A DNA stretch of 64,000 nt from NCBI GenBank assembly GCA_020635395.1, contig JACJZV010000001.1, positions 782,675 through 846,674 of the forward strand, given 5' to 3'. Every line of letters starts with the position of its first letter. Within the stretch, counting starts at the first letter, position 1. Positions 18,610-51,312 of the stretch are shown here, piece by piece. The notes beneath the pieces are model-generated. The model was given only the letters and a program-made list of their open reading frames with translations, did not search any database and was not told the origin of the DNA. Source of the stretch: Flavobacteriales bacterium. GTDB lineage: Bacteria > Bacteroidota > Bacteroidia > NS11-12g > UBA9320. The position numbers and the translations under genes were made by a program.

Positions 18610-19497
18610 CTAAACAAAATATTTGCATGGGTTAAAATTGGTATTCCTTTTCCATCGATTAAATGCATACTCGGTCATGGCATTGCTACGGTTTTTTAAA
18701 ATACCCAGACCCTTATGCTCCTTTGCACCACCAAAATAGGTGATTAAATATTGCTCGATTACCCGGGCTTCAAAAAATTTCATTTTTATACCATCTATAC
18801 CGGATATAAATACATCTTTAATGCTTATTGAACTTATTTCTGTCGTCCTTTTCCATAAGTTGTATTCTTTGATACCATCCAAGGCACGTTTGCCTTCTTC
18901 AACATGCTGAACGTGCCTTAAATCTAACCGCTGCGTTGTAATGCCGACATAGAGGTCGGCTTTGGAAACTTTGTCTTTTAGGGTGTAGAATTCAAACACG
19001 TACTCCGTTTGGTCGGCATAGCTGAAAGCCGTTTGGTTGTGTGTAAGAATGCCTGAGTTGGCTACTAAGTAGTTGTGGTTTTGAGCCACTTCTATGTTGT
19101 GGGTGGGTACTTGTTGTTCTATTTTTTGGATAGATGCAATGTGTATATGTTTGTTGTTTTGGGCATCGAACAAATAATCGCCCAACGACAGTTGGCTGGC
19201 GGCTTTCCAACGCTTGGCAAAGGCTTCAAAAAACCGGTGGTTGCCCGTTACATTTAGTTCTGTGCCGCAAGTGGTGGTTATTTTGATGTATTGCAAGGCG
19301 GTGTTGGTATATGTTTGCAATATTAGTTGCAATTCGGTAGTTTTGGTTTTTTCGTTATAGCTCCACACGTTTTCGCCTGTCTTTAAATCTTCAATAGGTT
19401 TTAGCCCTTGTTCGGTATGCACCATTGTACCAGCCAAAAAACATGGAATTTTAGGCGGTTTTTCAAAAAGGTCTGTAAATCTATAATCTTTCCACAT
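18610..19497 (-). CDS. Hint (Hedgehog/intein)-domain protein with a C-terminal domain of about 140 aa of unknown type. This is the architecture of a pre-toxin Hint plus toxin tip from a polymorphic toxin, but it lacks any N-terminal delivery or repeat region.
   Basis: ATG start (MWKDY...). Hint block A is CFLAGTMV at aa 27, block B is VTGNHRFF, and the C-terminal block is HNYLVANSGILTHN. A further C-terminal domain of about 140 aa has no recognised motif. There is no signal peptide and no RHS/YD/filamentous repeats. Confidence 0.7.
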   Translation of the reverse strand: MWKDYRFTDLFEKPPKIPCFLAGTMVHTEQGLKPIEDLKTGENVWSYNEKTKTTELQLILQTYTNTALQYIKITTTCGTELNVTGNHRFFEAFAKRWKAASQLSLGDYLFDAQNNKHIHIASIQKIEQQVPTHNIEVAQNHNYLVANSGILTHNQTAFSYADQTEYVFEFYTLKDKVSKADLYVGITTQRLDLRHVQHVEEGKRALDGIKEYNLWKRTTEISSISIKDVFISGIDGIKMKFFEARVIEQYLITYFGGAKEHKGLGILKNRSNAMTEYAFNRWKRNTNFNPCKYFV

Positions 19498-22754: not shown

Positions 22755-23642
22755 ATGTCAGGAGGTTTTTATAGTAATTCTACATTTTTAGCCTTAGTTA
22801 TTTTGGCGGTTGTGTTGCTCATCGTAGCGGCATTGATGGTGTATGTTGTTAAACACATTACATCCATTTTAAACCAAAAATACCCTACTCAGGCGGAGCC
22901 AACTTTTTACGAGAGTAAAATAAAGCCCACAACAGATAAGTGGAACCCAACTATTGTATCGTTGGTGGTTATTGGCATTTTAGCCATTGTTTTAGGTGGG
23001 TGGGGATTCGATTATACTGCTTATAAAGTGGGTAATCAGCAAGGTTATGCACCTGACCAACCAATCAATTTTCCGCACGACAAACATGCCGGTGCAATGA
23101 ATATTGATTGTCAGTATTGCCATATAGGTGCGTCAAAAAGTAAACATTCCACCATTCCATCAAGCAATATTTGTATGAACTGCCACAAGGGGGCTCAGTT
23201 GAGAGAAAAATACAACGGACAAGTATCTCCTGAGTTGGCTAAACTGTATAAGTATGTAGGTTTTGACCCAGAAGCAGGCTCTTACGATCCGAATGCAAAA
23301 GGAGTTGGCCCGATAAAATGGGTAAGGGTTCACAACCTTCCTGACTTGGCATATTTCAACCACTCACAACACGTATCTGCTGCAAAATTGGCTCCAGATG
23401 GTAGCACCGAGAGCAAAGATATTTGTAATGTATGTCATGGGCCTGTACACGAAATGGCCAAATTGGAGCAATTTAGCACATTGCAAATGGGCTGGTGTGT
23501 AAACTGTCACAGACAAAGAGGTATTGATGTTGAAAACAACAAATACTACGAGGATGTGCATAAAGAAATGAAAAAGAACAACAAGCATTATGTTACCGTT
23601 GCAGAAAACGGAGGTTTGGAATGTTCAAAATGCCATTATTAA
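22755..23642 (+). CDS. actA: Alternative complex III subunit ActA, a membrane-anchored pentahaem cytochrome c.
   Basis: An N-terminal TM anchor is followed by five CxxCH motifs: CQYCH, CMNCH, CNVCH, CVNCH, CSKCH. It is the first gene of a six-gene co-directional cluster with 3-40 nt gaps. Confidence 0.85.
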   Translation: MSGGFYSNSTFLALVILAVVLLIVAALMVYVVKHITSILNQKYPTQAEPTFYESKIKPTTDKWNPTIVSLVVIGILAIVLGGWGFDYTAYKVGNQQGYAPDQPINFPHDKHAGAMNIDCQYCHIGASKSKHSTIPSSNICMNCHKGAQLREKYNGQVSPELAKLYKYVGFDPEAGSYDPNAKGVGPIKWVRVHNLPDLAYFNHSQHVSAAKLAPDGSTESKDICNVCHGPVHEMAKLEQFSTLQMGWCVNCHRQRGIDVENNKYYEDVHKEMKKNNKHYVTVAENGGLECSKCHY

Positions 23643-23682: not shown

Positions 23683-26600
23683 ATGAGTAATTTGGAAAAT
23701 AAATACTGGAAGGGAATTGAAGAACTGGAAAAACCTGCTCAATATGCAGGAAGAACCGATGAGTTCTCAGACAAGCTTCCGATGGAAGAAATTTTTGGTG
23801 ATTCGGATGAAATAACTTCAAACCGCCGAGATTTCTTAAAGTTTTTTGGTTTTAGCGTTAGTGCAGTAGCATTGGCCGCCTGCAATAGGACACCGGTAAA
23901 GTATGCCATGCCTTATATCGAAAAACCAGCGAATGTAACTCCGGGTCTCCCTTTGTATTACGCAACTTCATGTGGTGCGTTCAACGAAGGTTTTCCTGTT
24001 GTGGCTAAAGTGCGAGAAGGTAGGCCAATAAAATTGGATGGTAACGAAAAAAGCATCCTCAGTCAGGGAGGGTTAAATGCTATTGGCCAAGCCAGTATTT
24101 TGTCGTTGTATGACATCAACCGTTTGCAAAACCCAAAAATTGGCGGAAAAACAGAGAAAGATTGGGCAAACGTAGATAAAAAAGTAGCAGAAATATTAAA
24201 GCAAGCGGCAGGAAAAGGCGTGGCAGTGGTTTCAAGAACCGTTACCAGCCCAATTCTTAAAGATGCTATTGATAAATTTAAGACAGCTCACAATGCTACA
24301 CACATTGTGTATGACCCAATTTCGTATTCAGGTATTTTAAATGCCAATAAAGAATCGTTTGGTGTAGCTACCGTTCCAAATTATAAATTCGACAAAGCAG
24401 AGCTAATTGTTAGTTTCGGTGCCGACTTTTTAGGTACATGGGTTTCTCCTGTTAGGTTTTCGTCTGATTATGCTAAAAACAGAGTTCCTTCGCCAGAAAA
24501 TGCCAATATGAGCAGACACTACCAAATTGAAGCAAACATGAGTTTGACAGGAACCAATGCCGATTATCGGTTTGCAATTCCGGCCTCAAAACATGGAGCC
24601 TATTTGGTAAGTCTATATAATATGGTTGCCTCAAAAGTTGGGGGTTCTTCCGTTTCTGGTGCTCAAAATGAGCTTGCCGGAAACATGTTGAGCAAAATAG
24701 CCGAAGAATTGGTGGCAGCAAAAGGAAAGGCATTGGTTGTTTGTGGAAGCAACAACAAAGCCGACCAGATTATTACCAATGCAATAAACACTATGTTAGA
24801 TAGCTATGGAAACACCATAGACATCAACACTTCATACAATGTATCTGCCTTTAATGAGGCGGAATTTGACAATTTTGCAAAACAGGCTGGAAGCCTTGGA
24901 GCTGTAATATTTTTAAACTGTAATCCGGTTTATTCTTATGCCAACGGCAAAGATTTGGCCGATTCGTTGAAAAAAACCAATGTAATTTGCACATCTATTG
25001 TGGCGGATGAAACCTCAATGAATGCCACAGTGAATGCTCCGGATAACCACTTCTTGGAGTCGTGGGATATTTATGAGCCAATGAGCGGACATTATCTAAC
25101 TTCTCAACCAACCATTACCAAAGTATTCAACACCAGAAGTGCTGCTGAGTCTTTGAGAACTTGGGCTGGAGAGACGTTGGAAATGGGAGAGGATCAAGTT
25201 TCTCGCAGTTGGGTTGTAAATTATTTGGAGAGCAACTTGGGGGTAAATGCTGAACAAGCTCTGCATGACGGGGTGGTGGAAAAAGCTGCTTCAAATGGAG
25301 CAGGCTCATTCTCAGGTTCTGTTTCTGATGCCGCTGCAGCTATAGCTTCTGCAAAAAAAGGTGATGGTTTAGAACTTTCACTCTATCAAAAAGTAGGAAT
25401 AGGCGATGGCACAATGGCCATGAACCCATGGTGTCATGAAATGCCGGACCCGGTTACAAAAGTTACTTACGATAACTACGTGACGATTTCAAGAAGTGAT
25501 GCAGAAGCCAATAATTGGGAACAAGGCGATTGGATGAAGGTAACTTCCTCAAATGGTACGGTTGACAAATTGCCTTTACTTATTCAACCTGGGCAAGCGG
25601 TAGGAACCATCGGTATAGCTTTGGGCTATGGCCGCACACCTGAAATATTAGACGAAAACAAAAATGATTTGGTTGACCTTGGTAAAAATGTTTACCCATT
25701 GGTTCAAACAGATAATGGCACCTATTCGTATGTGGTGAGTGGCGTGAAACTTGAAAAAGTAGGTTCGGGTTATGAATTTGCCCAAACTCAAACGCATCAC
25801 ATGGTAGAAGGTCGTGATATAATGAGAGAAACAACACTTTCTGAATATCAAAAAGAAAAAGACGCAGGAAACAAACCTCAGGCTAAAACACAGCACTTGG
25901 TATCTCTTTGGGAAGAATTTGACTATTCAAAGGGACATCATTGGGCAATGGCTGTTGATATGAATGCCTGTACGGGTTGTGGCTCTTGTATTGTAAGCTG
26001 CAGCTTGGAAAACAACGTGCCAATTGTTGGCCGTGATGAGGTTCGTAGAAGGAGAGAAATGCATTGGATTCGTATCGACAGATACTATGCATTTGAGGTT
26101 CAGGAAGAAACAAAAGTATCAGTAAAATTTGCCGGAGAAAGAGACTTTAAAAAAGGCGATTATTCTTCGAAAGAAAAGGAACTAAACGCATTGGATGAAA
26201 TTGCCAAAAAAGGGGGCAAAAACGACTATTCGCATTACAACAATGTTACGGTAGTTCATCAACCAATGATGTGTCAGCATTGCGACCATGCACCTTGCGA
26301 GACTGTTTGTCCGGTATTGGCAACTACGCATAGCTCGGAAGGTTTGAATCAAATGACCTATAACCGTTGCATCGGAACGAAATACTGTGGAAACAACTGC
26401 CCATACAAAGTGCGTCGTTTCAACTGGTTTAAATACAACGATAACAGCAAATTCAATTATCATTTCAATAACGAACTTGGAAGAATGGTTCTTAACCCTG
26501 ATGTAACGGTGCGTTCAAGAGGGGTTATGGAAAAATGTAGTTTCTGCGTTCAAAACATTCAAATGGCAAAACTGAAAGCCAAGATTGAAAACAGAAAATT

Positions 26601-26808
26601 GAATGATGGGGATGTTACCGTGGCATGTGCAAAAACTTGTCCATCAAATGCTTTGGTGTTTGGAGATAGAAATGACCCCAACAGCAAAATTGCTCAAATG
26701 TATAAAAACGAAAGAGGGTATTTAATGCTCGAAGAAGTGGGCATTCAACCATCTGTGAAGTATTTGACAAAAATTAGAAACAAAAAACAAGAAGTTCAAC
26801 ATTCATAA
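23683..26808 (+). CDS. actB: ACIII subunit ActB, the fused molybdopterin-oxidoreductase-like and 4Fe-4S ferredoxin-like subunit.
   Basis: 1041 aa. The Tat motif is NRRDFLKFFGFSVSAVALAAC. The C-terminal half has several Cys clusters: CTGCGSCIVSC, CQHCDHAPCETVCP, CIGTKYCGNNCP, CSFC...C..C. This is the PsrAB-like fusion characteristic of Bacteroidota ACIII. Confidence 0.85.
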   Translation: MSNLENKYWKGIEELEKPAQYAGRTDEFSDKLPMEEIFGDSDEITSNRRDFLKFFGFSVSAVALAACNRTPVKYAMPYIEKPANVTPGLPLYYATSCGAFNEGFPVVAKVREGRPIKLDGNEKSILSQGGLNAIGQASILSLYDINRLQNPKIGGKTEKDWANVDKKVAEILKQAAGKGVAVVSRTVTSPILKDAIDKFKTAHNATHIVYDPISYSGILNANKESFGVATVPNYKFDKAELIVSFGADFLGTWVSPVRFSSDYAKNRVPSPENANMSRHYQIEANMSLTGTNADYRFAIPASKHGAYLVSLYNMVASKVGGSSVSGAQNELAGNMLSKIAEELVAAKGKALVVCGSNNKADQIITNAINTMLDSYGNTIDINTSYNVSAFNEAEFDNFAKQAGSLGAVIFLNCNPVYSYANGKDLADSLKKTNVICTSIVADETSMNATVNAPDNHFLESWDIYEPMSGHYLTSQPTITKVFNTRSAAESLRTWAGETLEMGEDQVSRSWVVNYLESNLGVNAEQALHDGVVEKAASNGAGSFSGSVSDAAAAIASAKKGDGLELSLYQKVGIGDGTMAMNPWCHEMPDPVTKVTYDNYVTISRSDAEANNWEQGDWMKVTSSNGTVDKLPLLIQPGQAVGTIGIALGYGRTPEILDENKNDLVDLGKNVYPLVQTDNGTYSYVVSGVKLEKVGSGYEFAQTQTHHMVEGRDIMRETTLSEYQKEKDAGNKPQAKTQHLVSLWEEFDYSKGHHWAMAVDMNACTGCGSCIVSCSLENNVPIVGRDEVRRRREMHWIRIDRYYAFEVQEETKVSVKFAGERDFKKGDYSSKEKELNALDEIAKKGGKNDYSHYNNVTVVHQPMMCQHCDHAPCETVCPVLATTHSSEGLNQMTYNRCIGTKYCGNNCPYKVRRFNWFKYNDNSKFNYHFNNELGRMVLNPDVTVRSRGVMEKCSFCVQNIQMAKLKAKIENRKLNDGDVTVACAKTCPSNALVFGDRNDPNSKIAQMYKNERGYLMLEEVGIQPSVKYLTKIRNKKQEVQHS

Positions 26809-26827: not shown

Positions 26828-28174
26828 ATGTTTGAAGCTGCAATAAGAAAGCCACTTGTAACGGGTAACAAATCCATTAGCGATGTTACCGAGGATATAT
26901 GTAGGCCAATTGAAAACAAACCCACCAAACAATGGTGGTTAGGTTTTACCGTGTCATTCATTTTATTGATTGTCATGGTGCTTTCACTTGGCTGGACCGT
27001 ATGGGAAGGTATCGGAACTTGGGGAGTAAACAAAACCGTAATGTGGGGTTGGGATATTACCAACTTCGTATTTTGGGTTGGTATTGGACATGCCGGAACG
27101 CTGATTTCTGCCATCCTACTTTTGTTCCGTCAAAAATGGAGAATGAGTATAAACAGAAGTGCAGAGGCCATGACCATTTTTGCGGTTCTGTGTGCGGCAC
27201 AGTTCCCGTTGTTTCACATGGGTAGAGTTTGGTTGGGATATTGGCCATTGCCATTGCCCAACGCCTTTGGTTCATTGTGGCCAAACCCTAACTCTCCGTT
27301 GATGTGGGACGTATTTGCGATTTCTACCTACCTTTCTGTTTCATTAGTGTTTTGGTATTTAGGTCTTATTCCTGATATTGCCACCATCAGAGACAGAGCA
27401 ACAACCAAAGCACGAAAATTTTGGTATGGATTTTTCTCAATGGGATGGAATGGTTCTGCCAGAACGTGGCATCGATATGAAATTGTTGCCTTAATATTGG
27501 CAGGTATATCTACGCCACTGGTATTATCAGTTCATACCATTGTATCCATGGACTTTGCCACCGCCGTAATTCCTGGATGGCACACCACCATTTTCCCTCC
27601 ATACTTCGTTGCCGGAGCTATTTTCTCGGGTTTTGGTATGGTTTTAACACTGCTTATCATTGTGCGTAAGGTAATGAATCTTACCGACTACATTACCATT
27701 GAACACCTTGAGGCCATGAGTAAAGTAGTTATGCTTACTGGTTCTTTGGTAGGTATGGCTTATTTGACTGAGTTTTTTATTGCTGCTTATTCTGGAGTAG
27801 AATATGAGCAATATGCTTTCTTGAACAGAGCCTTTGGCCCTTATTCTTGGGCATATTGGACAATGATGAGTTGCAACCTTATTGCACCACAAGTATTTTG
27901 GTTTAAATGGGCAAGAACCACACCGTGGTTCCTATTTATCATGTCCATTATCGTAAATATTGGTATGTGGTTCGAGCGATTTGTAATTATCGTTACCTCA
28001 TTGCATAGAGATTATTTGCCATCATCATGGGCAATGTATAGTGCAACGTATGTAGAAGTTGGTATTTTCCTTGGCACAATGGGATTGTTCTTTACCTGCT
28101 TCTTCTTATTTGCGAAATTTTTGCCAGTTGTTAACATGGCGGAGGTTAAAGGAATTATTAAAAGTAGAGAGTAA
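26828..28174 (+). CDS. actC: ACIII subunit ActC (NrfD/PsrC-like polytopic quinol-interacting membrane subunit).
   Basis: 448 aa, about 10 predicted TM helices, NrfD-like. It sits directly after actB. Confidence 0.8.
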
Positions 28175-28195: not shown

Positions 28196-29095
28196 ATGTT
28201 AGAAAAAGAATTAATATTAGGTGTTTACGACGACGGAGATAAACTTCTCAACGCCGTTCATAAACTTAGAAAAAAAGGTGTAGAAATATTTGATTGCTAC
28301 ACACCTTATCCCGTTCACAATTTGGATAAGGAAATGGGTATTAACCGTTCAAATCTTACGGTAGGTGCTTTTATCTGTGGTTTTCTTGGATTCATTAGTG
28401 GATTGTTATTGCAATTTTACATGATGACCAATGAGCTGCATACCTTTAAAAGTTGGCCGATGATTATTGGTGGTAAACCGCAAGATTACACGGTTTTGCC
28501 AAGTATGATTCCGGTTACCTTTGAGTTGACCGTATTGTTTACGGCATTTGGTATGGCTTTCTTGTTTTTTGCAAAAAGTAGAATGATACATGGCAAGATT
28601 GCCGAAATTGTTGACCCACGGGTTACAAACGATAGATTGTTTGTAGGTATTGAGCCTTCCGCACTTCACGGCATCTCTCGAAGCGAATTAGACGCCATAA
28701 TGAATGAGACCGGTGCTCTCGAAATAAGAAACTACAACGGCAGTAGCGAAGTCAATACTTCATCAGCCGAGGCATCTCAACCAAAAGTTGAAGAGTCAAA
28801 GGTGGTTGAAACAAGTGCTGACCTGTCAGAAGAAGAACGTACGGAGAAAATGTCGTTCTTGAAGTCGGTGGTTGGGGAATTTTCAGCCGACAATATGGAC
28901 GACTTGAAACAAATTAATGGCGTTGGGCCAGTTTACGAAAAACAACTTCACGAACTTGGTATCTACAGCTTTGAGCAAGTTGCTAAATTGACAGCCGACG
29001 CAATTAAATCTATCGAAGATTTAACAAAATATTTCCCCGGAAAAATTGAGCGAGAAGATTGGGTAGGTCAGGCTAAAAACTTAATGAATAAGTAA
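28196..29095 (+). CDS. actD: ACIII subunit ActD (DUF3341-like) with an acidic linker and an HhH-like C-terminal extension.
   Basis: The first ~175 aa have two TM helices and an ActD-like core. A Ser/Glu-rich linker follows. The tail is LKQINGVGPVYEKQLHELGIYSFEQVAKLT, a helix-hairpin-helix-like (G-V-G-P) motif. Confidence 0.7.
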   Translation: MLEKELILGVYDDGDKLLNAVHKLRKKGVEIFDCYTPYPVHNLDKEMGINRSNLTVGAFICGFLGFISGLLLQFYMMTNELHTFKSWPMIIGGKPQDYTVLPSMIPVTFELTVLFTAFGMAFLFFAKSRMIHGKIAEIVDPRVTNDRLFVGIEPSALHGISRSELDAIMNETGALEIRNYNGSSEVNTSSAEASQPKVEESKVVETSADLSEEERTEKMSFLKSVVGEFSADNMDDLKQINGVGPVYEKQLHELGIYSFEQVAKLTADAIKSIEDLTKYFPGKIEREDWVGQAKNLMNK

Positions 29096-29098
29096 AAA

Positions 29099-30178
29099 AT
29101 GAAATTGAAACTTAATTCAGTAAATGTATGGATTATGGCTTCGGTTGTAGCATCTACATCAATGGTAGGTTGCACGGCAGGGGGCAATAATCCAGGATTG
29201 GAATATGCTCCGCAGATGTATATTTCAAAAGCGTATGAAGCATATACTCAACGGGATGAAATGCAATACAATCCTTATGGAATGACCATGCGGGTTCCAG
29301 TAAACGGAACTGTGGCTAGAGGTCAGGTTGGATTTTTTGACTACAAAGAAGGATATGAGGCAGCGGCATCCTGGTCAAATCCGGTGGCAGCCACCCGAAA
29401 AAATGTTTTGACCGATGGTAAAAAATTATATAACATCAATTGCCAACATTGCCATGGGGCAACCGGCAAAAACGATGGCGGGGTTATAAAAAGTAATCAA
29501 TATGCACCTCCACCATGGGATGGCTATAGCTCTGACTATATTAAAAACTTACCCGATGGACAGGCATTTCACACCATTACCTTCGGTAAAGGAAACATGG
29601 GTTCTCATGCGTATGCTTTAACACCCGAAGAAAGATGGAAAGTACTTCATTACGTAAGATTTTTAGGTGCAGGTGCCGATGAAAAGAACTTTACATTTGC
29701 CCAGGAGGAAACCAAAAGCACCACGCAAACAATGAATGTTTCTGGTCAAACGGTTGGAAGTGAAGAATTGGTAGATATGAACCCAAAAGGAATGGGGGGC
29801 AGAATTGACTTGGGAGCGGATGCTCAAAAAATTCAAAATGCCATTGGCCATGTTAAGTTTGGTGCATTACAATATTTAGACTTCAAAAAAGAAAGCGAAC
29901 CTCATTTAGATGTGATTGCTGATTTTATGAAATCGCACCCCGAATATAAAGCGGTAGTAACCGGATATGCTGCTCCATCAATGAATATTGGTGGTAAAGC
30001 CGCTGGCGAAATTGGTCTAATTCGTGCCAAAACAGTGTGTAAATATTTGGCATCTAAAGGAATTTCGATGGAGCATTTAACACCTAAAAGTGGGGCTGAT
30101 ACCGAAGTTGCCGGAAGTAACGAAACCAAAGAGGGTAGAGAAGAAAATAGAAGAGTAGAAATTTATTTCATAAAATAG
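29099..30178 (+). CDS. actE: ACIII subunit ActE (lipoprotein monohaem cytochrome c) fused to a C-terminal OmpA-like domain.
   Basis: The lipobox is MVGCTAG and there is a single haem site, CQHCHG. The C-terminal ~125 aa (DFMKSHPEYKAVVTGYAAP...IRAKTVCKYLASKGI...NRRVEIYF) follow the OmpA_C pattern, including the NRRVEI signature. Confidence 0.7.
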   Translation: MKLKLNSVNVWIMASVVASTSMVGCTAGGNNPGLEYAPQMYISKAYEAYTQRDEMQYNPYGMTMRVPVNGTVARGQVGFFDYKEGYEAAASWSNPVAATRKNVLTDGKKLYNINCQHCHGATGKNDGGVIKSNQYAPPPWDGYSSDYIKNLPDGQAFHTITFGKGNMGSHAYALTPEERWKVLHYVRFLGAGADEKNFTFAQEETKSTTQTMNVSGQTVGSEELVDMNPKGMGGRIDLGADAQKIQNAIGHVKFGALQYLDFKKESEPHLDVIADFMKSHPEYKAVVTGYAAPSMNIGGKAAGEIGLIRAKTVCKYLASKGISMEHLTPKSGADTEVAGSNETKEGREENRRVEIYFIK

Positions 30179-30184
30179 GTACAA

Positions 30185-31582
30185 ATGGGACACCATCATA
30201 TTACAGAAGTAAAAGAAGAAAAATTTGAGTTTACCAGCCGCTCTAGAATGTTTGTGGGCTTGGTATTCATTGTTGGATTGATTCTTACGTTTGTTGGTTT
30301 TTCAAAAATGAAAAGTACCAACGAGCATGGCAATAAACACGCAAAGGTGGAACATGTTGAGCAAAATGTTATTCACGCGGTGGCCAATCAAGAAGGAAAC
30401 GGTGAGCAACACGGAGCAGAACATTCAGCTGCCGCAGGTAATGAAGCAAACCGCGAGGGTGGCGAACATGCGGGCGGGCATCACGAAACTTGGAAAATGC
30501 GTTTTTGGGCAAACCTATTGCTCAACTCATACTATTTCATGTTGTTTGCACTGGCTGCCGTATTCTTTATTGCCGTAAACTATGCTGCAAACGCAGGATG
30601 GTCAACCTTGCTAAAGCGGGTAATTGAATCAATTTCATCGTATCTTCCCGTAGCTATCGTTATTTTAATGATAGTGGTTTTTATGGGAAAAGATTACATC
30701 TATCACCATTGGTGGCCAAAAATTGGATTAAAACCGGGCGATGCAGGATACGATGCTTTGATTGAAAAGAAATCTTGGTTTTTGAGCAAAGGATGGTTAA
30801 TGGTTGGAGCTCCGGTAATAATGATTATCTGGGTTTTATTTCGAACCATTTTAGTTCGTTTCTCACACAAAGAAGACGTGGAAGGTGGTACTTCTTTCTT
30901 TAGAAAAAGTGTAAACGTTTCAGCAGGATTCTTGGTTTTCTTTGCTTTCACTTTCTCTATTCTAAGCTGGATTTTGATTATGAGCATTGATGCCCACTGG
31001 TATAGTACTATTTTCTCTGTTTACAACTTTGCCATTGCATTTGTAACGGGTTTAACGGTAATCTGTTTCTTTACATTATACCTTAAATCAAAAGGATATA
31101 TGGAAATTGTTTCTGACGAGGTTATTCATGACTTGGGTAAATTTATGTTTGCCTTCTCTATTTTCTGGGCATATATTTGGTTGGCACAGTTCTTATTGAT
31201 TTGGTATGCAAACATCAGCGAAGAGGGTATTTACTACACCTTTAGATTAGAACATTTTAAACCAATGTTTAGAGTAAATATTTTGATGAATTTCTTCTTG
31301 CCATTTTTAATCTTGATGATGAGAAATGCGAAAAGAAACCCCAAAGTGTTGTTGGTGGCTGGAACAATCATTTTGTTTGGCCATTGGTTAGACTTGTTTT
31401 TGATGATAATGCCGGGCGTGGTTGGAGAAACAGCTCATATCGGTCTTTTAGAGATTGGAATGACCATGGCTTTTGCGGGATTATTCATTTACTGGGTGTT
31501 GCACAATCTGTCAAGAAAGAATTTGTATGCGGCAAATCACCCATACCTACTTGAATCTGCAAACCACGATGTGGGAGTTTAA
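30185..31582 (+). CDS. actF: ACIII subunit ActF (second NrfD-like membrane subunit) with a His-rich N-terminal segment.
   Basis: 465 aa and polytopic. It begins MGHHH, and between TM1 and TM2 lies about 60 aa of low-complexity sequence with about 12 His (HGNKHAKVEHVEQNVIH...GEHAGGHHETW). It is in the operon position of actF. Confidence 0.65.
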   Translation: MGHHHITEVKEEKFEFTSRSRMFVGLVFIVGLILTFVGFSKMKSTNEHGNKHAKVEHVEQNVIHAVANQEGNGEQHGAEHSAAAGNEANREGGEHAGGHHETWKMRFWANLLLNSYYFMLFALAAVFFIAVNYAANAGWSTLLKRVIESISSYLPVAIVILMIVVFMGKDYIYHHWWPKIGLKPGDAGYDALIEKKSWFLSKGWLMVGAPVIMIIWVLFRTILVRFSHKEDVEGGTSFFRKSVNVSAGFLVFFAFTFSILSWILIMSIDAHWYSTIFSVYNFAIAFVTGLTVICFFTLYLKSKGYMEIVSDEVIHDLGKFMFAFSIFWAYIWLAQFLLIWYANISEEGIYYTFRLEHFKPMFRVNILMNFFLPFLILMMRNAKRNPKVLLVAGTIILFGHWLDLFLMIMPGVVGETAHIGLLEIGMTMAFAGLFIYWVLHNLSRKNLYAANHPYLLESANHDVGV

Positions 31583-31601
31583 TTAAAATCTTATAAAAGC
31601 A

Positions 31602-31641
31602 AGAAGGCATTTCGAAAAAAGCGAAATGCCTTCTTCGTTTA
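31602..31641 (+). terminator. Candidate rho-independent terminator after actF.
   Basis: GAAGGCATTTCG aaaaaag CGAAATGCCTTC is a 12-bp perfect stem. A weak T-rich tract (TTCGTTTAT) follows. Confidence 0.45.
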
Positions 31642-31718: not shown

Positions 31719-33326
<1,608 letters not shown>

Positions 33327-33342
33327 TTAGTTTTAAAAATAA

Positions 33343-34047
33343 ATGAAAAAAGCAATTTTTGGATTGGCCATAGTAGCTATCGGCTTATCGGCTTGCAAAA
33401 CTGGAGGAAAAGCGGTAAAGCTAAAAAACGAAGTTGACAGCGTTTCGTATGCTTGGGCTTATGCAATGGTTTCTAATGCTCAGTACATGAAGAGCTGGGA
33501 TACGTTGAATGTAGAAGTTATAGCAGCGGCCATTAAAGACTATTACGAAAAAGGAGATAGCGGAATGGCTATTTCAATGAACAATGTTCAGAGCGTTTTG
33601 GAAACATACGATTCTAAAAAATACAATGTTGTGTTGCAAAAGAACCTTGATGAAGGTCAAAAGTATTGGGAAGCCAACAAGGGAAAAGAAGGCGTTGTAA
33701 CTTTAGACAATGGCTTACAATACAAAGTGATAACACCTGGGAATGGAGTAAAACCCCAAATAAACGACACAGCTATATGCCATTATACATTGCGAAACGT
33801 AAACGGCGAGGTATTGCAATCATCTCAAGAATTTGGCCAACCGATACGATATACTGTTGGAAGTGGTATTCAAGGATGGAATGAAGCCTTGCCAATGATG
33901 GCCACAGGTTCTAAATGGGAACTTACCGTTCCGGCTAATTTAGCTTACGGAAAAAGAGGCAACCAAAGCATACCCGGCAATACAACATTGATATTTGAAA
34001 TTGAATTGTTGGATGTAGTAAAAGGAAAAAATGAAGCAAAAAAATAA
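33343..34047 (+). CDS. FKBP-type peptidyl-prolyl cis-trans isomerase, a periplasmic lipoprotein (FkpA/FklB-like).
   Basis: The lipobox is LSAC. The C-terminal FKBP domain has V.YKVI..G.G..P...D.V..HYTG...NG..FDSS and GW.EAL.MM..GSKWEL.VP..LAYG.RG. Confidence 0.8.
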   Translation: MKKAIFGLAIVAIGLSACKTGGKAVKLKNEVDSVSYAWAYAMVSNAQYMKSWDTLNVEVIAAAIKDYYEKGDSGMAISMNNVQSVLETYDSKKYNVVLQKNLDEGQKYWEANKGKEGVVTLDNGLQYKVITPGNGVKPQINDTAICHYTLRNVNGEVLQSSQEFGQPIRYTVGSGIQGWNEALPMMATGSKWELTVPANLAYGKRGNQSIPGNTTLIFEIELLDVVKGKNEAKK

Positions 34048-34723
34048 TAAAATAAGTTGGGTAGTCGTGGTTGCGGCCTTGTCGTTGGCATCATGTTCTG
34101 CCATTAAATCGAAAAGCAAAATGGAGGGAACTCAGGCACAAGTAAATTCCGAATTGGCACAAGCATCTGAAGCCACGGGCAAATTGGTTGGAAACAACAT
34201 TAAAAGTGGCGGTTTTGAAAAACTGGATATGAACGCTTTTATGGCAGGTTTACAGATGGCTTACGACAGCAACTTATCTCCTGATGATTTGCAGAATGCC
34301 AGCAAAATAATGAACGACTTTTTGACAAAGCAATTGTCGAAAGTTGGCAGCGAGTGGTTGGCAGAAAATGCCAAAAAAGATGGTGTTATTTCCCTGCCAA
34401 GTGGCTTGCAATACAAAGTAATAAAGCAGGGCAGTGGAGCAGTTGCCGCAGACGGAGATCAAGTTTCAGCCCATTACACCGGAAAACTGATTGACGGAAA
34501 AATATTTGATAGTTCTGTAGAAAGAGGGGAGCCATTAACCATTGGAGTTAATCAAGTAATCCGTGGTTGGACAGAGGCTTTAAAGATGATGCCGGAAGGC
34601 TCTAAATGGGAACTTTACATACCCTACAACTTGGCTTATGGCGAGCGTGGAAGCCCTCCTGCAATACCTCCATATTCAACATTGATTTTCGAAATTGAGT
34701 TGATTGATGTTATTGGAAAGTAA
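34031..34723 (+). CDS. FKBP-type peptidyl-prolyl cis-trans isomerase, a tandem paralogue.
   Basis: The lipobox is LASC. The FKBP motifs are LQYKVIKQGSG...VSAHYTGKLIDGKIFDSS and GWTEALKMMPEGSKWELYIPYNLAYGERG. Its start overlaps the upstream paralogue by 17 nt. Confidence 0.8.
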   Translation: MKQKNNKISWVVVVAALSLASCSAIKSKSKMEGTQAQVNSELAQASEATGKLVGNNIKSGGFEKLDMNAFMAGLQMAYDSNLSPDDLQNASKIMNDFLTKQLSKVGSEWLAENAKKDGVISLPSGLQYKVIKQGSGAVAADGDQVSAHYTGKLIDGKIFDSSVERGEPLTIGVNQVIRGWTEALKMMPEGSKWELYIPYNLAYGERGSPPAIPPYSTLIFEIELIDVIGK

Positions 34724-34782: not shown

Positions 34783-37700
34783 TTATTTAGAAACGGCTAT
34801 AGCATTCTTCTTCCACAGCCAATTGCCATCAAAAGTCAGATATTCCGGTATTTCGCCAACAAAAACTGTAAAAATTCGAGTGGCCTCGTCATACGTTATA
34901 TTGTCGTAAGTGTTTGTGGTAATCTTCTTTCCGAGGCCATCAATAAGCTCGTAGGAATGGTTTTTTAATGCAGTAATCTCATTGTCGTCACCAATCCAAA
35001 TGCGAGTGTATTCTATGGGTAGAACAATATCTCCAAAATGATTTATCACACCGTAATAGTCACCTATTTTTACTTTGGCAAGTCCATTTTTAAAGGGTTC
35101 GGCAAAGGTAAATTTCATTTTACATAAGGGTTTTCCAAATGCATCCAGATACTCCCAAACGTTGTTTCGATAAATTAAAATACTACCCTCCGAATATCTT
35201 GGGCGGTTTTGAATATTGACTTTCGGAAGAATATTCCCAAAAGTATCGATGCAGTGATATTCTCGTTTCAGACACACAAGAGCCAGCCCATTGCCAAAAT
35301 CGGTGCCGTAGTTAAACTTTGGTTCAATCACCCAGTCTCCTTTTTGGTTGATGTATCCGGTATGGCCATTTTTATTTTTTAGCTGCACCATTGCTCTGCC
35401 ATCGGCAAATGCCCCGTATTTCGACACATTGTAAATCTTTTTCAATTTATTCCCTGCTGGGTCATAAACGGTTAATATTTTATTTCGATAGGCAAGAATA
35501 GCGTGTTGGTCTATTTTAACAGTTTTATATCGTGGTTTTACAATCATTTCGCCATTTGAGCCAACAACCCCCCACAAATGTTTTTTGGCCAAAATCATTG
35601 ATTCGTTTTTTTGATAAGCCATTTTTCGGTATTTGGGCTTGCATATTGTTTCGCCCGCTGTGTTTATAAGACCATATTTTTTATTTCCATTCGCCACAAT
35701 GGCCACATCGCCTTTAAAGGCAAAGGTTTTGGAATAAAACTCGTCATTCAACGGATTTCCGTCGGTATCTATAATGATAAAACCATTTTTTCGTTTTCCA
35801 CTTTTTTTCTTTTCAGATATCTTGATGGCTGCATAATTGCCCGAACACCAAGCAATGTTTTTATAGGGTTTGTCATTTATCTGGCTTCCGTTGCTATCCA
35901 AAATGCCCCACCCACGATTTAATCGAACCGGCACAAGCCCATTGTCAAACTCTTTTCTGAAAGCATAAACCGGAACTTCTGTTTTAATCATCTCTCCATT
36001 GGCTTTCAGAACATAAGAAGCATTGTCAGATTTTACGAGAGCCAGCCCGTCGTGCATTTTACTCCCCTCCGAGTAGGAATTGTTTATTCGTTGACCTTTG
36101 TTGTTATAATAATGGTAGGCATCCGTCCATTTGGTTAATTTGTATAAACTTCCGGAGTCGTTAGACACTCGGTCAATGTTGATGTTGTCGAATGAGGTAA
36201 GATATTGGCCGTCTCTATTTATCAAGGCACATGTATCCCATTTGTAAACCACTGCATTGTCTGGGTCGAAAGGTTCTGCAAACGATATGTCATTTCGGGA
36301 TAGAAGCAAATTGCCATCTGCATCCACGTAGTTCCAAGTACCGCCCACAAATGTTACCATTACCGACGACCGATATCGATTGTACATGAATGAGCTTGCT
36401 TTTTGGTAAAGTACGGCTATGGAGTAGTTGTATTTATTTGCAAAATCAAGAGCCATGTCAATGTTTTTATAAGATGGCGGCTGTAAGTAATCAATGGAGC
36501 CTTTAAGGTAAATTCTTGCCCGTCCATTCACAAAATCATCGATGAAAGGAGATTGATATTTTTGTTCTTTAAAGTTTCCTTTATGAATAAGTACAAATTC
36601 GCCAGAAGCCTTTCGTGCCTGAAAAACATTCAAATTTGGGTCGGATAGCGATTTTGTGTCAATGTAGGTATAGTTCAATGGAACCACAATTTTGCCGATG
36701 GTGTGATCCACAATTCCGCAATAGGTGGTAAATAATGAGCTTTTTGTGGAATAATACGATTGACGGAAAACGAACGAAAAGGGAGACCCCTCAACAGCAG
36801 TATGGTAGGAAAATTGAGGTTTAAGCCATACCTCACCGCTGGGTGAACGCAAGCCCCAATATGATTTTTCGATAAACCATACCCCCGACTGATTAACAAG
36901 ATTGTTGACGATGCCCGAGGCGTTGGCATCCATTCCCATTCGCACAGATTCGAGCGTGTTATGATTGGTAAATTCGGCACTATCAACCACCCTTTTGTTT
37001 TCCAACTCAAAAAACCAAAGATTTCCATCGTTATCAATACCCTTAATAACATTGTCTGATACACTCAGTTGGCTCATGCGGGGAGCTATCAATTCTTTTT
37101 TTGCCAAAAACCCGAAAACGCCAATGCCACTTTCCGTACTCACCTGAATAAAATCATCGTTTAATAGATAAACGGAGCTATAAACATTGGGCAACAACGG
37201 AACTAAATTTGAGTCGAGCAAATTGGCAATTCCGTTCGACGAAACCTGAAGATAATTGCTCTGTACTCGGGCATATTCTAAAGTCTCCGGAAGATATTTT
37301 CCGTTCAACAGAATCTTGAGTACTCCATTGTTGTTAATAACTAAATGGTTGTTGAAAATGGTACTCACGAAACCCCAGTTGGTGTCGATGGCCTCGTTTG
37401 TAGGTGCATAAAAAAGAATGGTATCCTTTTTAAATATAGCCGAGTAATAGTCGTTATAATCAATAATTTCCTCCCAAGTCTGGTCAAAAACAGTTGACGC
37501 AGAATCTATTGGATGCCATTTCTTTTTTTGCTTAACAAATTGCCTGTTGCAGACGTGCATATAATCTTCAAATTCACCCAAAAGAAATAATTTTGAATCG
37601 ACGCAGTATATTCCTGATTTTGAGGCTTCGTTGTGCGTACACCAAAAGAAAAAGTTATCAAAACGATTGCTAAATGTGATGGATTGATAAATGGGTTCGA

Positions 37701-38139
37701 CAATAAATTGCAACGAAGAATCTAATATTCCGTAAAGATTATTTTGCTTTACCAAAAACCAAAGTCCATTGTTAATCGCCTCAATTTCAGAGAAATCGGC
37801 TGTTTTTAATATCTCTCCCGAGTAGCTGCAAAAACCAAATTGATTGTTGGTGTTGAAGATAATTTTATCCTGCAACAATTGGTGCAGATTCATACCATGC
37901 ACGGAAAGTGTTTTGCCCTGTGAATTTATCAGAAAGGTTTCCGAATCAATGTCAACCCTTGCAAAACCATATTTAAAAGAAGATGCCTTGTCGAATTGAT
38001 TGGCAATTTTTTGATTCCCATTTCCATCAATATAGCCCCACTTTTTCCCATCAAATACTGGATATAAGGTTTGCGACAGCACCAAAAGAGATTTGCAGCA
38101 TAGCAGTGCCACCAAACTCAAAAACTTCAACCTGTTCAT
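34783..38139 (-). CDS. Large (1118 aa) secreted WG-containing-repeat (KWG) protein.
   Basis: Signal peptide. There are many about 35-aa repeats of the form G..G.WG.ID..G..VI.P.Y... (for example GKKWGYIDGNGNQKIANQFDKASSFKYGFARVD, NGLWFLV, GKYGLIN). Confidence 0.75.
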   Translation of the reverse strand: MNRLKFLSLVALLCCKSLLVLSQTLYPVFDGKKWGYIDGNGNQKIANQFDKASSFKYGFARVDIDSETFLINSQGKTLSVHGMNLHQLLQDKIIFNTNNQFGFCSYSGEILKTADFSEIEAINNGLWFLVKQNNLYGILDSSLQFIVEPIYQSITFSNRFDNFFFWCTHNEASKSGIYCVDSKLFLLGEFEDYMHVCNRQFVKQKKKWHPIDSASTVFDQTWEEIIDYNDYYSAIFKKDTILFYAPTNEAIDTNWGFVSTIFNNHLVINNNGVLKILLNGKYLPETLEYARVQSNYLQVSSNGIANLLDSNLVPLLPNVYSSVYLLNDDFIQVSTESGIGVFGFLAKKELIAPRMSQLSVSDNVIKGIDNDGNLWFFELENKRVVDSAEFTNHNTLESVRMGMDANASGIVNNLVNQSGVWFIEKSYWGLRSPSGEVWLKPQFSYHTAVEGSPFSFVFRQSYYSTKSSLFTTYCGIVDHTIGKIVVPLNYTYIDTKSLSDPNLNVFQARKASGEFVLIHKGNFKEQKYQSPFIDDFVNGRARIYLKGSIDYLQPPSYKNIDMALDFANKYNYSIAVLYQKASSFMYNRYRSSVMVTFVGGTWNYVDADGNLLLSRNDISFAEPFDPDNAVVYKWDTCALINRDGQYLTSFDNINIDRVSNDSGSLYKLTKWTDAYHYYNNKGQRINNSYSEGSKMHDGLALVKSDNASYVLKANGEMIKTEVPVYAFRKEFDNGLVPVRLNRGWGILDSNGSQINDKPYKNIAWCSGNYAAIKISEKKKSGKRKNGFIIIDTDGNPLNDEFYSKTFAFKGDVAIVANGNKKYGLINTAGETICKPKYRKMAYQKNESMILAKKHLWGVVGSNGEMIVKPRYKTVKIDQHAILAYRNKILTVYDPAGNKLKKIYNVSKYGAFADGRAMVQLKNKNGHTGYINQKGDWVIEPKFNYGTDFGNGLALVCLKREYHCIDTFGNILPKVNIQNRPRYSEGSILIYRNNVWEYLDAFGKPLCKMKFTFAEPFKNGLAKVKIGDYYGVINHFGDIVLPIEYTRIWIGDDNEITALKNHSYELIDGLGKKITTNTYDNITYDEATRIFTVFVGEIPEYLTFDGNWLWKKNAIAVSK

Positions 38140-51210: not shown

Positions 51211-51312
51211 TAGTTCTTTTTCATGCAAAGATTATGATTTTTATTTGGGTATTGAATGTTGCAATTTTACCTGTAAATTTGTAACCATTGTATAAGGTTA
51301 AATAACTTGGTT

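What the first reader, a model, noticed from the sequence alone, without database searches (positions are those of the whole stretch)
29099..30178. ActE monohaem cytochrome c of ACIII fused to an OmpA-like C-terminal domain
The fifth gene of the act operon encodes two things in one ORF: a lipoprotein monohaem cytochrome c and, after a linker, an OmpA-like domain.

What the sequence shows:
- The lipobox is MVGC and the single haem site is CQHCH, in the operon position of ActE.
- The ORF is 359 aa.
- Its last ~125 aa (...YKAVVTGYAAP...GLIRAKTVCKYLASKGIS...NRRVEIYF) follow the OmpA C-terminal pattern, including the diagnostic NRRVEI.

Inference:
- The domain would tether the mobile electron-exit cytochrome of ACIII to the cell wall or periplasmic side.
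- Alternatively it is a repurposed fold.
Basis: partly seen in the sequence, partly recalled or inferred. Interest (0 to 1): 0.55.

Follow-up and report, generated by a model that had tools for sequence, protein, structure and literature searches.

The report
ACIII cytochrome ActE with OmpA-like tail
A small haem subunit of a respiratory complex (alternative complex III) really is fused to a cell-wall-binding-type domain, an architecture shared by about 100 Bacteroidia protein clusters but not described in the searched literature; in this copy the wall-binding pocket has lost two key residues.

Summary
Window 29099-30178 (+) is one uninterrupted 359-aa ORF between actD and actF. It encodes a lipobox (Cys25), an ActE monohaem cytochrome c (CQHCH 115-119, Met167; 6BTM_E E=1e-20), a disordered linker of about 45 residues, and an OmpA-like domain. 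The OmpA match is PF00691 at 30.4 bits against a cut-off of 27.2, with Foldseek TM 0.77-0.88 to AbOmpA, Pal and OprF.

It is not a frameshift artefact. An independent assembly is 100% identical across the linker. I collected 103 fused ActE cluster representatives, always in the actE slot. They include cultured Crocinitomix catalasitica and Putridiphycobacter roseus, annotated only as "OmpA family protein".

57 of the 103 keep the full GHTD...N..LS..RA peptidoglycan-binding signature, so the family-level function is most likely tethering ACIII's periplasmic tip to the cell wall. The window protein belongs to a clade in which the diaminopimelate-contacting Asp (here Ala292) and the Asn (Ala302) are lost, while Arg309 stays invariant. 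Its tail is still under purifying selection, yet relatives have repeatedly deleted theirs and kept remnants. Wall binding by this copy is therefore doubtful.

Verdict: a new variant of a known kind, of moderate interest. Side finding: a cytoplasmic HHH module on ActD or ActC co-occurs with the tail.

The parts
22755..23642 (+). actA, the pentahaem cytochrome c subunit of ACIII
   Evidence: Multihaem cytochrome Pfam hits and a QrcA-like NCBIfam hit. Syntenic in all act loci.
23683..26808 (+). actB, the fused B1-B2 molybdopterin-like / 4Fe-4S subunit with a TAT-variant signal
   Evidence: Fer4, Molybdopterin, QrcB/QrcC and TIGR04519 hits.
26828..28174 (+). actC, the NrfD-type membrane subunit
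   Evidence: PF03916 NrfD, E=1e-20.
28196..29095 (+). actD. The ActD core is aa 1-180; an extra C-terminal HHH module covers aa ~225-299 (nt 28868-29092).
   Evidence: PF11821 ActD, E=2e-46. The tail matches the C-terminal part of 9wqv_a (E=2e-14) and of 8yy9_O (E=1.5e-11), and the PRK12373 NuoE C-terminal extension.
29099..30178 (+). actE::ompA-like fusion gene, 359 aa plus stop
   Evidence: It starts 3 nt after the actD stop and ends 6 nt before the actF start.
29099..29173 (+). Lipoprotein signal peptide ending in lipobox MVGC (Cys25)
   Evidence: Seen directly in the sequence. Cys25 is invariant in 44/44. ActE is a lipid-anchored lipoprotein in solved ACIII (PMC5928083, PMC8552683).
29174..29674 (+). 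ActE body: an extended N-terminal arm (aa 26-~80) and the monohaem cytochrome c domain (aa ~80-192). The haem motif CQHCH is at nt 29441-29455 and the Met167 ligand at nt 29597-29599.
   Evidence: 6btm_E E=1e-20 over aa 30-188. pLDDT is above 90 for aa ~90-200.
29675..29818 (+). Polar, poorly conserved linker (aa 193-240)
   Evidence: pLDDT is below 50 for aa 206-233. Identity to clade members is 18%, against 68% for the cytochrome domain and 45% for the tail.
29819..30175 (+). OmpA-like (Pal/MotB-type) domain, aa 241-359
   Evidence: PF00691 at 30.4 bits, above the 27.2 cut-off. Foldseek TM 0.77-0.88 to 3td5, 5u1h, 2hqs and 5wtp. Invariant residues are F254, G289, R309, N350, R351 and V353.
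29963..30025 (+). Degenerate ligand-pocket segment G289-YAAPSMNIGGKAAGEIGLI-R309. The canonical His, Asp and Asn are replaced by Tyr290, Ala292 and Ala302, while Arg309 is kept.
   Evidence: HMMER alignments to ArfA and 9v99. Pal-anchored alignment of 73 fused tails.
30185..31582 (+). actF, the second NrfD-like membrane subunit
   Evidence: Syntenic, 50-72% identical to actF of L001-L005.
31601..31635 (.). 14-bp perfect hairpin after actF, the likely operon end

Best explanation
**What is shown**
- The gene encodes a genuine ActE subunit of alternative complex III.
- It has a Sec/lipoprotein signal, is lipid-anchored through Cys25, and carries one c-type haem (His119/Met167).
- It continues in the same frame through a flexible linker of about 45-60 residues into a periplasmic OmpA-like domain.

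**What is inferred**
- By homology to solved ACIII, the cytochrome domain docks on top of ActA, at the membrane-distal tip of the periplasmic arm.
- From there the linker would let the OmpA-like domain reach the peptidoglycan layer.
- Across the fused family, more than half of the members keep the complete diaminopimelate-binding signature. There the tail most likely pins ACIII, and any attached oxidase, non-covalently to the cell wall. This resembles how MotB, YiaD and TssL tie inner-membrane machines to peptidoglycan.

**This particular protein**
- It belongs to a derived clade in which the Asp and Asn of the pocket are lost and only the Arg remains.
- My committed reading is that its tail is a folded, still-selected accessory anchor with weakened or non-canonical wall binding, and that it is dispensable for electron transfer.
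- My estimate for some residual peptidoglycan association is about 40%.
For: **Identity of the two halves**
- ActE.
- OmpA-like fold.
- Flexible linker: pLDDT below 50, pTM 0.46 (no fixed packing), and 18% identity.

**Conserved architecture in the actE slot**
- Seen in L001-L006, L060, L061 and L082.
- 103 fused cluster representatives were collected. 57 have canonical G[HY]TD and 102/103 have the Arg helix motif.
- Crocinitomicaceae members carry TSP3 repeats plus a canonical pocket, like the periplasmic part of Bacteroidota OmpA.

**Selection on the tail**
- Identity is 45-55% for the tail against 18-31% for the linker.
- dN rises in the order cytochrome, tail, linker. The query's tail/cytochrome dN ratio is about the same as in relatives.

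**Literature**
- ActE sits on top of ActA and is a lipoprotein (PMC5928083).
- ActE is dispensable for electron transfer to aa3 but helps growth (PMC8552683), so it is a subunit free to carry an accessory role.
Against: - The residue pair that binds diaminopimelate in OmpA-like domains is Asp271/Arg286 in AbOmpA (PMC12108004). Here it is half missing (Ala292).
- The conserved Asn is also missing (Ala302), the His is Tyr, and the loop has a 3-residue insertion with lower pLDDT of about 68.
- The query is the most degenerate member of its clade. Most of its nearest relatives keep an Asp two positions later (GH[IV]ASD), where the query has Ser.
- Relatives repeatedly lost the tail by internal deletion and left remnants: L009, P0056-58, P0030 and P0082. 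Close relatives L007 and L008 have plain ActE. The tail is therefore dispensable.
- No binding experiment exists for any member of this family.
Confidence: 0.45

Rival explanations
1. Repurposed fold. In the degenerate-pocket clades the OmpA-like domain no longer binds peptidoglycan. Instead it docks onto another periplasmic partner, such as a subunit of ACIII, a terminal oxidase, a soluble acceptor or another glycan. The conserved Arg309 and the NRRVE core would serve that new interface or just keep the fold stable.
For: - Asp and Asn are lost in 46 of 103 fused clusters, yet the domain stays conserved within those clades (52-55% identity) and Arg is present in 102/103.
- The clades have their own conserved loop motifs, GH[IV]ASD..PG and GHTG.TLT[DE]EG. 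That suggests a new constraint and not simple decay.
- R. marinus ACIII has an unassigned periplasmic density above ActE (PMC5928083), so that surface can host partners.
Against: - No partner is identified.
- pTM is 0.46 and the linker is disordered, so there is no sign of intramolecular docking.
- Repeated deletion of the tail argues against an important new function.
Confidence: 0.3
2. Decaying relic. The tail was a functional wall anchor in an ancestor. In this lineage it is a folded but functionally spent appendage on its way to loss.
For: - The query's pocket is the most degenerate observed, Y-A-A-R, and is unique among 103.
- There are several independent internal deletions with remnants such as '...VEIEIHK' and '...NRQNDINLIK', and plain ActE occurs in close relatives.
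Against: - The tail is full length and confidently folded, with pLDDT mostly 79-98.
- It evolves at about twice the cytochrome-domain dN, the same ratio as in relatives, and far slower than the linker.
- The core residues F254, G289, R309 and NRRVE are intact.
Confidence: 0.2
3. Pocket co-evolved with altered peptidoglycan chemistry. The lineage would have a modified position-3 residue, for example an amidated or non-DAP residue. The wall would then still be bound, through a different set of contacts.
For: - This is inference only. Arg is retained, and the Asp/Asn are lost clade-wide, not sporadically.
Against: - It could not be tested. There is no other OmpA-like ORF in the window or in the held loci of the clade to compare pockets.
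- The pocket position is variable within clade e (G/D/V/W). That looks like relaxed selection, not a new specificity.
Confidence: 0.05

Closest known systems
ActE of Flavobacterium johnsoniae ACIII (PDB 6BTM chain E) and of Rhodothermus marinus (6F0K chain E)
   Same: - Lipobox Cys, extended N-terminal arm, single CxxCH with Met ligand, and the same operon slot.
- E=1e-20 and E=2e-16 over aa 30-190.
   Different: - The solved ActE proteins end after the cytochrome domain (chains of 162 and 209 residues).
- The window protein carries about 165 extra residues: a linker plus an OmpA-like domain.
ActE::OmpA proteins of Crocinitomicaceae (Crocinitomix catalasitica P0283, Putridiphycobacter roseus P0279; annotated 'OmpA family protein')
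   Same: - Same two-domain architecture in the actE slot of an act cluster.
- An HHH module is also present on the complex.
   Different: - Only about 30% identical.
- They have a canonical GHTD...N..LS..RA pocket and a TSP3 repeat linker.
- The HHH module is on ActC, not ActD.
- coxII and coxI lie directly downstream, which is not the case in the window.
Peptidoglycan-binding OmpA-like domains (A. baumannii OmpA-PD 3TD5, E. coli Pal 2HQS/1OAP, P. aeruginosa OprF 5U1H, C. gingivalis OmpA 5WTP, M. tuberculosis ArfA 2KGW)
   Same: - Same fold (TM 0.77-0.88, rmsd 1.5-2.2 A).
- Shares the conserved Arg and the NRRVE motif.
   Different: - Lacks the Asp that pairs with the Arg to bind diaminopimelate.
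- Lacks the conserved Asn.
- Has a 3-residue longer beta2-alpha2 loop.
Inner-membrane-anchored wall tethers (YiaD, MotB/MotS, TssL/TagL)
   Same: - Same logic: an inner-membrane anchor, a flexible linker and a C-terminal OmpA-like domain in the periplasm.
- YiaD is the best NCBIfam hit (E=1e-11).
   Different: - All scores are far below the equivalog cut-offs (45 against 175 bits), so it is not a member of any of these families.
- The anchored cargo here is a respiratory quinol oxidoreductase, which I found in no paper.

Membership tests
ActE (monohaem cytochrome c subunit of alternative complex III) | Sequence homology to ActE of structurally solved ACIII | tested here: met
   6btm_E E=1e-20 (aa 30-188), 6f0k_E E=2e-16 and 6lod_E E=2e-6. 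Foldseek also hits 6f0k_E.
ActE (monohaem cytochrome c subunit of alternative complex III) | Single CxxCH haem-binding motif with a distal Met ligand | tested here: met
   CQHCH at aa 115-119. C115, C118, H119 and M167 are invariant in 44 homologues. Actual haem attachment is not testable here.
ActE (monohaem cytochrome c subunit of alternative complex III) | N-terminal lipobox cysteine (lipid anchor) | tested here: met
   MVGC with Cys25 invariant. The lipoprotein nature of ActE is described in PMC5928083 and PMC8552683.
ActE (monohaem cytochrome c subunit of alternative complex III) | Gene located between actD and actF in an actABCDEF cluster | tested here: met
   There are 3-nt and 6-nt intergenic gaps.
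ActE (monohaem cytochrome c subunit of alternative complex III) | Assembles into ACIII and is reduced on quinol oxidation | not testable with these tools
   Needs purification or spectroscopy.
OmpA-like / OmpA_C domain (Pfam PF00691) | HMM match above the curated gathering score | tested here: met
   30.4 bits against 27.2, aa 262-351, E=5e-7.
OmpA-like / OmpA_C domain (Pfam PF00691) | The alpha/beta sandwich fold of Pal/OmpA C-terminal domains | tested here: met
   AF2 pLDDT is mostly 79-98 in aa 235-359. Foldseek TM 0.77-0.88 and rmsd 1.5-2.2 A.
Peptidoglycan-binding OmpA-like domains (functional subclass) | Conserved Asp that contacts diaminopimelate (Asp271 of AbOmpA) | tested here: not met
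   Ala292 in one HMMER alignment and Met295 in the other; there is no acidic residue in the loop. The residue's role is taken from PMC12108004.
Peptidoglycan-binding OmpA-like domains (functional subclass) | Conserved Arg that contacts diaminopimelate (Arg286 of AbOmpA) | tested here: met
   Arg309. It is invariant in 73/73 aligned fused tails, and the motif is present in 102/103.
Peptidoglycan-binding OmpA-like domains (functional subclass) | Conserved Asn seven residues before the Arg (the YN..LS..RA motif) | tested here: not met
   Ala302.
Peptidoglycan-binding OmpA-like domains (functional subclass) | Binds peptidoglycan | not testable with these tools
   Needs a sacculus pull-down or a structure with ligand.
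Named OmpA-like subfamilies (YiaD, PA1041, TssL, MotB/D, Pal, YfiB; NCBIfam equivalogs) | Score above the curated equivalog cut-off | tested here: not met
   The best hit is YiaD at 45 bits against a 175-bit cut-off. All the others are also far below their cut-offs.
Inner-membrane-to-wall tethers (works like, not membership) | Inner-membrane anchor, flexible linker and periplasmic OmpA-like domain on one polypeptide | tested here: met
   Lipobox, disordered linker aa 206-233 and a C-terminal OmpA-like domain. Periplasmic location is inferred from the signal peptide and the c-type haem.

The most novel reading that the evidence does not exclude
In a subset of Bacteroidia, ACIII is a positionally fixed respiratory complex held from both sides.

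- An OmpA-like module on ActE ties its periplasmic tip to the cell wall.
- A cytoplasmic HHH module, homologous to the function-unknown C-terminal domain of NuoE/Urf1 (protein-O), ties its cytoplasmic face to another structure. This module sits on ActD in this window and on ActC in Crocinitomix.
- The two add-ons co-occur in distant lineages even though the HHH module is attached to different subunits. That suggests a functional link and not just shared ancestry.
Probability: 0.15. Interest if true: 0.7.

Novelty: new variant of a known kind. Interest (0 to 1): 0.45.

Why it matters
**A new kind of accessory on a respiratory complex**
- Respiratory complexes are normally pictured as free to diffuse in the membrane.
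- A peptidoglycan-binding-type domain built into a subunit of a quinol:cytochrome c oxidoreductase would be a rare case of a wall-tethered electron-transport complex.

**It bears on an open question**
- An accessory scaffolding or anchoring role for ActE is a concrete, testable idea.

**Natural controls and tractable organisms**
- Fused ActE with an intact pocket exists in cultured Crocinitomix catalasitica and Putridiphycobacter roseus.
- The degenerate-pocket clade, including this window, and the deletion remnants form a natural series from gain through decay to loss.

**Annotation**
- These proteins are currently labelled only 'OmpA family protein' or 'c-type cytochrome', which hides the ACIII link.

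Tried and rejected
1. **Frameshift or mis-assembly origin of the fusion: rejected.**
   - P0001, an independent assembly, is identical across the linker.
   - 103 colinear homologues were found.
   - The only 'stand-alone tail' hit, P0121/L081, lies on a long-read contig. There ActD, ActE and the FKBP genes are all split, which indicates assembly frameshifts.
2. **Homology search with the tail alone.** The word index gave only 7 candidates and 1 hit, so it was uninformative about other architectures.
3. **Single versus multiple origin of the fusion: unresolved.**
   - An NJ tree of the cytochrome domain interleaves fused and plain forms.
   - A BLAST comparison of tails against other OmpA-like domains was inconclusive. 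It was also contaminated by mis-classified truncated ActE sequences.
4. **dN/dS.** dS is saturated (about 2 or more, or undefined), so only the dN ranking is usable.
5. **Source names for canonical fused representatives.** The listing of cluster members returned none.
6. **AFDB fold search.** The library was unavailable.
7. **Other OmpA-like proteins in the window or in held loci of the clade.** None were present, so the pocket comparison within the same genome could not be done.
8. **Literature.** No paper combines ActE or ACIII with an OmpA-like or peptidoglycan-binding domain. The one hit concerned the ompA promoter only.
Full report
**Observation**

Window 29099-30178 (+) is a single 359-aa ORF. 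It starts 3 nt after the stop of a gene with a full ActD Pfam match (PF11821, E=2e-46). It ends 6 nt before an actF homologue. The cluster reads:
- actA 22755-23642
- actB 23683-26808
- actC 26828-28174
- actD 28196-29095
- actE 29099-30178
- actF 30185-31582

A 14-bp perfect hairpin follows actF at 31601-31635, and nothing comparable separates actD, actE and actF. No ORF of 80 aa or more lies on the opposite strand of the fusion gene.

**The N-terminal half is ActE**
- phmmer against all PDB chains gives 6btm_E (F. johnsoniae ACIII subunit E) at E=1e-20 over aa 30-188. It gives 6f0k_E (R. marinus) at E=2e-16.
- The lipobox Cys25, C115, C118, H119 (CQHCH) and Met167 are invariant in 44 aligned homologues.
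- In the solved complexes ActE is a lipoprotein. Its N-terminal arm reaches the membrane and its haem domain sits 'on the top of ActA' (PMC5928083).
- It carries a lipid anchor and depends on ActA for assembly (PMC8552683).

**The C-terminal part is an OmpA-like domain**
- PF00691 matches aa 262-351 at 30.4 bits against a gathering cut-off of 27.2, E=5e-7.
- NCBIfam OmpA-like models (YiaD, PA1041, TssL, MotB/D, Pal and others) match down to E=1e-11, but all are far below their equivalog cut-offs.
- An AlphaFold2 model built on the 44-sequence alignment has two confident domains: the cytochrome at about aa 80-200 and the tail at about aa 235-359. The linker is disordered (aa 206-233, pLDDT below 50). 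pTM is 0.46, so there is no fixed inter-domain packing.
- Foldseek against the PDB matches the tail to several domains at TM 0.77-0.88 (target-normalised) and rmsd 1.5-2.2 A. They are AbOmpA-PD with its peptidoglycan pentapeptide (3td5), OprF (5u1h), Pal (2hqs, 1oap), C. gingivalis OmpA (5wtp) and ArfA (2lbt).

**It is not an artefact**
- P0001, from an independent Logan assembly, is 100% identical through aa 281. It then runs into what reads as Illumina adapter ('IGRAHV') at the contig end. The frame across nt 29750-29800 is therefore confirmed independently.
- Colinear fused proteins occupy the same operon slot in L001-L006 (uncultured Bacteroidia MAGs), L060 (Vicingaceae MAG), L061 (Crocinitomix MAG) and L082 (Crocinitomix catalasitica).
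- The single 'stand-alone tail' protein, P0121, sits on a long-read contig where ActD, ActE and the FKBP genes are all broken. I read these as frameshift errors.

**How common it is**
- Among the 120 best clusters from the first search, lengths are bimodal: 200-305 aa and 326-370 aa. 44 are 320 aa or longer, and nearly all of those carry PF00691.
- A profile search of 1.84 billion cluster representatives found at least 29 further fused clusters at the 50% level.
- Together with a search seeded from the Crocinitomix protein, I collected 103 fused ActE cluster representatives.
- In one-genome-per-species references there are at least 590 ActE-encoding loci. Only 8 of the best 80 are fused.
- Source names are only 'OmpA family protein', 'c-type cytochrome' or 'mono/diheme cytochrome c family protein'.
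- Cultured carriers are Crocinitomix catalasitica (P0283) and Putridiphycobacter roseus (P0279).
- In C. catalasitica the cluster is actA-B-C-D-E::OmpA-F followed directly by coxII and coxI.
- I found no paper that mentions such a fusion.

**The ligand pocket**
- OmpA-like domains bind the diaminopimelate of peptidoglycan through a conserved Asp/Arg pair, Asp271/Arg286 in AbOmpA (PMC12108004).
- In a Pal-anchored alignment of 73 fused tails, the Arg is present in 73/73. The full His-Asp-Asn-Arg signature is present in only 31.
- In the larger set, 57/103 have G[HY]TD and 102/103 have the Arg-helix motif.
- The canonical members are the deep-branching ones, from Crocinitomicaceae, Vicingaceae and others. 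Many also have a TSP3 repeat (D.D.D..D..D.C) in the linker, as in the periplasmic part of Bacteroidota OmpA.
- Two large clades have lost the Asp and Asn. One reads GH[IV]ASD / GHTA.D and contains the query. The other reads GHTG.TLT[DE]EG.
- The query reads GYAAPSMNIGGKAAGEIGLIRA. Tyr replaces His, Ala292 replaces Asp, Ala302 replaces Asn, the loop is 3 residues longer, and Arg309 is retained.
- It even lacks the Asp at +2 that most of its nearest relatives keep. Its four-residue state 'GYAA' is unique among the 103.

**Is the tail still selected?**
- Query against its clade: cytochrome domain 68% identity, linker 18%, tail 45%.
- Within clades the tail is 52-55% identical and the linker 21-31%.
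- dS is saturated. dN ranks cytochrome (0.08-0.24), then tail (0.18-0.62), then linker (0.3-0.97). The tail/cytochrome ratio is about 2 for the query, as it is for its relatives.
- The fold is therefore under purifying selection and the query is not an obvious pseudodomain.

**Is the tail dispensable?**
- Close relatives with the same downstream synteny (L008) or high ActC identity (L007) have plain ActE followed immediately by actF.
- Several 'plain' ActE proteins inside the fused clades end in recognisable remnants of the tail:
  - L009 and P0057 end '...ENASG[QR]VEIEIHK'.
  - P0056 ends '...MEGNITSMEDRKASGQVEIAIHK'.
  - P0058 ends '...NRRVDKAIYK'.
  - P0030 ends '...NGTKEGRIDNRQNDINLIK'.
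  - P0082 lacks the first third of the domain.
- The tail has thus been removed repeatedly by internal deletion.
- Plain ActE is also frequent among Crocinitomicaceae, so the accessory is patchy everywhere.
- Whether there was one ancient fusion with many losses or several fusions could not be resolved.

**Mechanism**

Shown:
- One polypeptide carries a lipoprotein signal, an ActE cytochrome, a disordered linker and an OmpA-like fold.
- It sits in the actE slot.
- The canonical pocket is retained in more than half of the family and is degenerate here.

Inferred:
- ActE sits at the membrane-distal tip of ACIII's periplasmic arm (PMC5928083).
- A linker of 21-246 residues (median 57; about 63 by the same measure in the query) could let the tail reach the peptidoglycan layer.
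- Canonical members would then pin ACIII to the wall in the manner of YiaD, MotB or TssL.
- ActE is not needed for electron transfer to aa3 but benefits growth in F. johnsoniae (PMC8552683). It is therefore a plausible carrier for an accessory, non-catalytic role.

For the window protein I estimate:
- residual or non-canonical wall association: about 0.4-0.45
- a shifted partner (repurposed fold): about 0.3
- a folded relic: about 0.2
- a pocket adapted to altered wall chemistry: about 0.05

**Comparison with what is known**
- It is a member of the ActE family; all sequence-level criteria are met.
- It is a member of Pfam OmpA.
- It fails two of the three pocket criteria of the peptidoglycan-binding subclass.
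- It belongs to none of the named OmpA-like equivalog families.
- The architecture exists in public databases, including cultured species, but under generic names. As far as the searchable literature shows, it is undescribed.
- I therefore rate it a new variant of a known kind, of moderate interest.

**Side finding**
- ActD here has an extra C-terminal module of about 75 aa (nt 28868-29092). It is homologous to the C-terminal part of PDB chains 9wqv_a (E=2e-14) and 8yy9_O, protein-O (E=1.5e-11), and to the PRK12373 NuoE extension.
- The authors who described protein-O call the function of this domain 'obscure' (PMC12079452). It derives from Urf1, encoded between nuoE and nuoF (PMC13066640).
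- ActD has two TM helices (PMC5928083), so the module should be cytoplasmic.
- Across 78 assessable act loci it co-occurs with the ActE tail: both 5, tail only 1, HHH only 1, neither 71. The single HHH-only locus is L009, whose ActE keeps a tail remnant.
- In Crocinitomix (L061, L082) the same module is attached to the C-terminus of ActC instead.
- Phylogenetic non-independence is not controlled, so a functional link between the two add-ons is only a hypothesis.

Noticed in passing
window 28868-29092 (+), C-terminal ~75 aa of actD: ActD carries an extra helix-hairpin-helix module. It is homologous to the function-unknown C-terminal domain of NuoE/Urf1 (protein-O): 9wqv_a E=2e-14, 8yy9_O E=1.5e-11, plus PRK12373. 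ActD has two TM helices, so the module is predicted to be cytoplasmic. It is a recurring add-on of bioenergetic complexes, here seen on ACIII.
   Followed up: partly
L061 6731-8443 and L082 6608-8380 (actC of Crocinitomix): The same HHH module is fused to the C-terminus of ActC (570-590 aa) instead of ActD. The ActE OmpA tail is present in these loci too. Across 78 loci the two add-ons co-occur: 5 both, 1 tail only, 1 HHH only, 71 neither.
   Followed up: partly
L009 7119-7853; proteins P0056, P0057, P0058, P0030, P0082: 'Plain' ActE proteins end in remnants of the OmpA tail, for example '...VEIEIHK' and '...NRRVDKAIYK'. P0082 lacks the first third of the domain. These point to repeated internal deletions of the tail.
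   Followed up: yes
window 31722-34723 (+) versus L082 11416-14550: In the window, actF is followed by an ABC-F ATPase and two FKBP-type lipoprotein isomerases. No terminal oxidase gene was found among the window's ORFs of 150 aa or more. In C. catalasitica, coxII and coxI follow actF directly.
   Followed up: partly
window 4559-15922 (-): A 3787-aa protein with at least 18 PKD repeats and a T9SS C-terminal sorting domain. Other T9SS cargo lies at 915-3332, 46635-50369 (CHU_C) and 53715-55157.
   Followed up: no
window 18610-19497 (-): A 295-aa ORF whose aa 24-154 match the Pretoxin-HINT / intein-splicing domain. No attached toxin or carrier domain was recognised.
   Followed up: no
window 51307-53291: A convergent pair: a C5 cytosine methyltransferase with an N-terminal MerR-type HTH (+), and an Eco47II-family restriction endonuclease (-). 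This is a type II R-M system.
   Followed up: no
window 34783-38139 (-): A 1118-aa protein made almost entirely of WG-containing beta repeats (PF14903).
   Followed up: no
window 31601-31635: A 14-bp perfect inverted repeat with a 7-nt loop immediately after actF. It is the likely terminator of the act operon.
   Followed up: no
P0001 (Logan contig, 2008 bp) C-terminus: The last residues, 'IGRAHV', translate the Illumina adapter sequence. This is adapter read-through at a contig end in a public assembly.
   Followed up: no
L081 (ENA contig_3271, 1.57 Mb): A long-read assembly in which actD, actE and the FKBP genes are each split into two called genes. These are probably indel errors that create false stand-alone 'OmpA' and 'HHH' proteins in protein databases.
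   Followed up: partly
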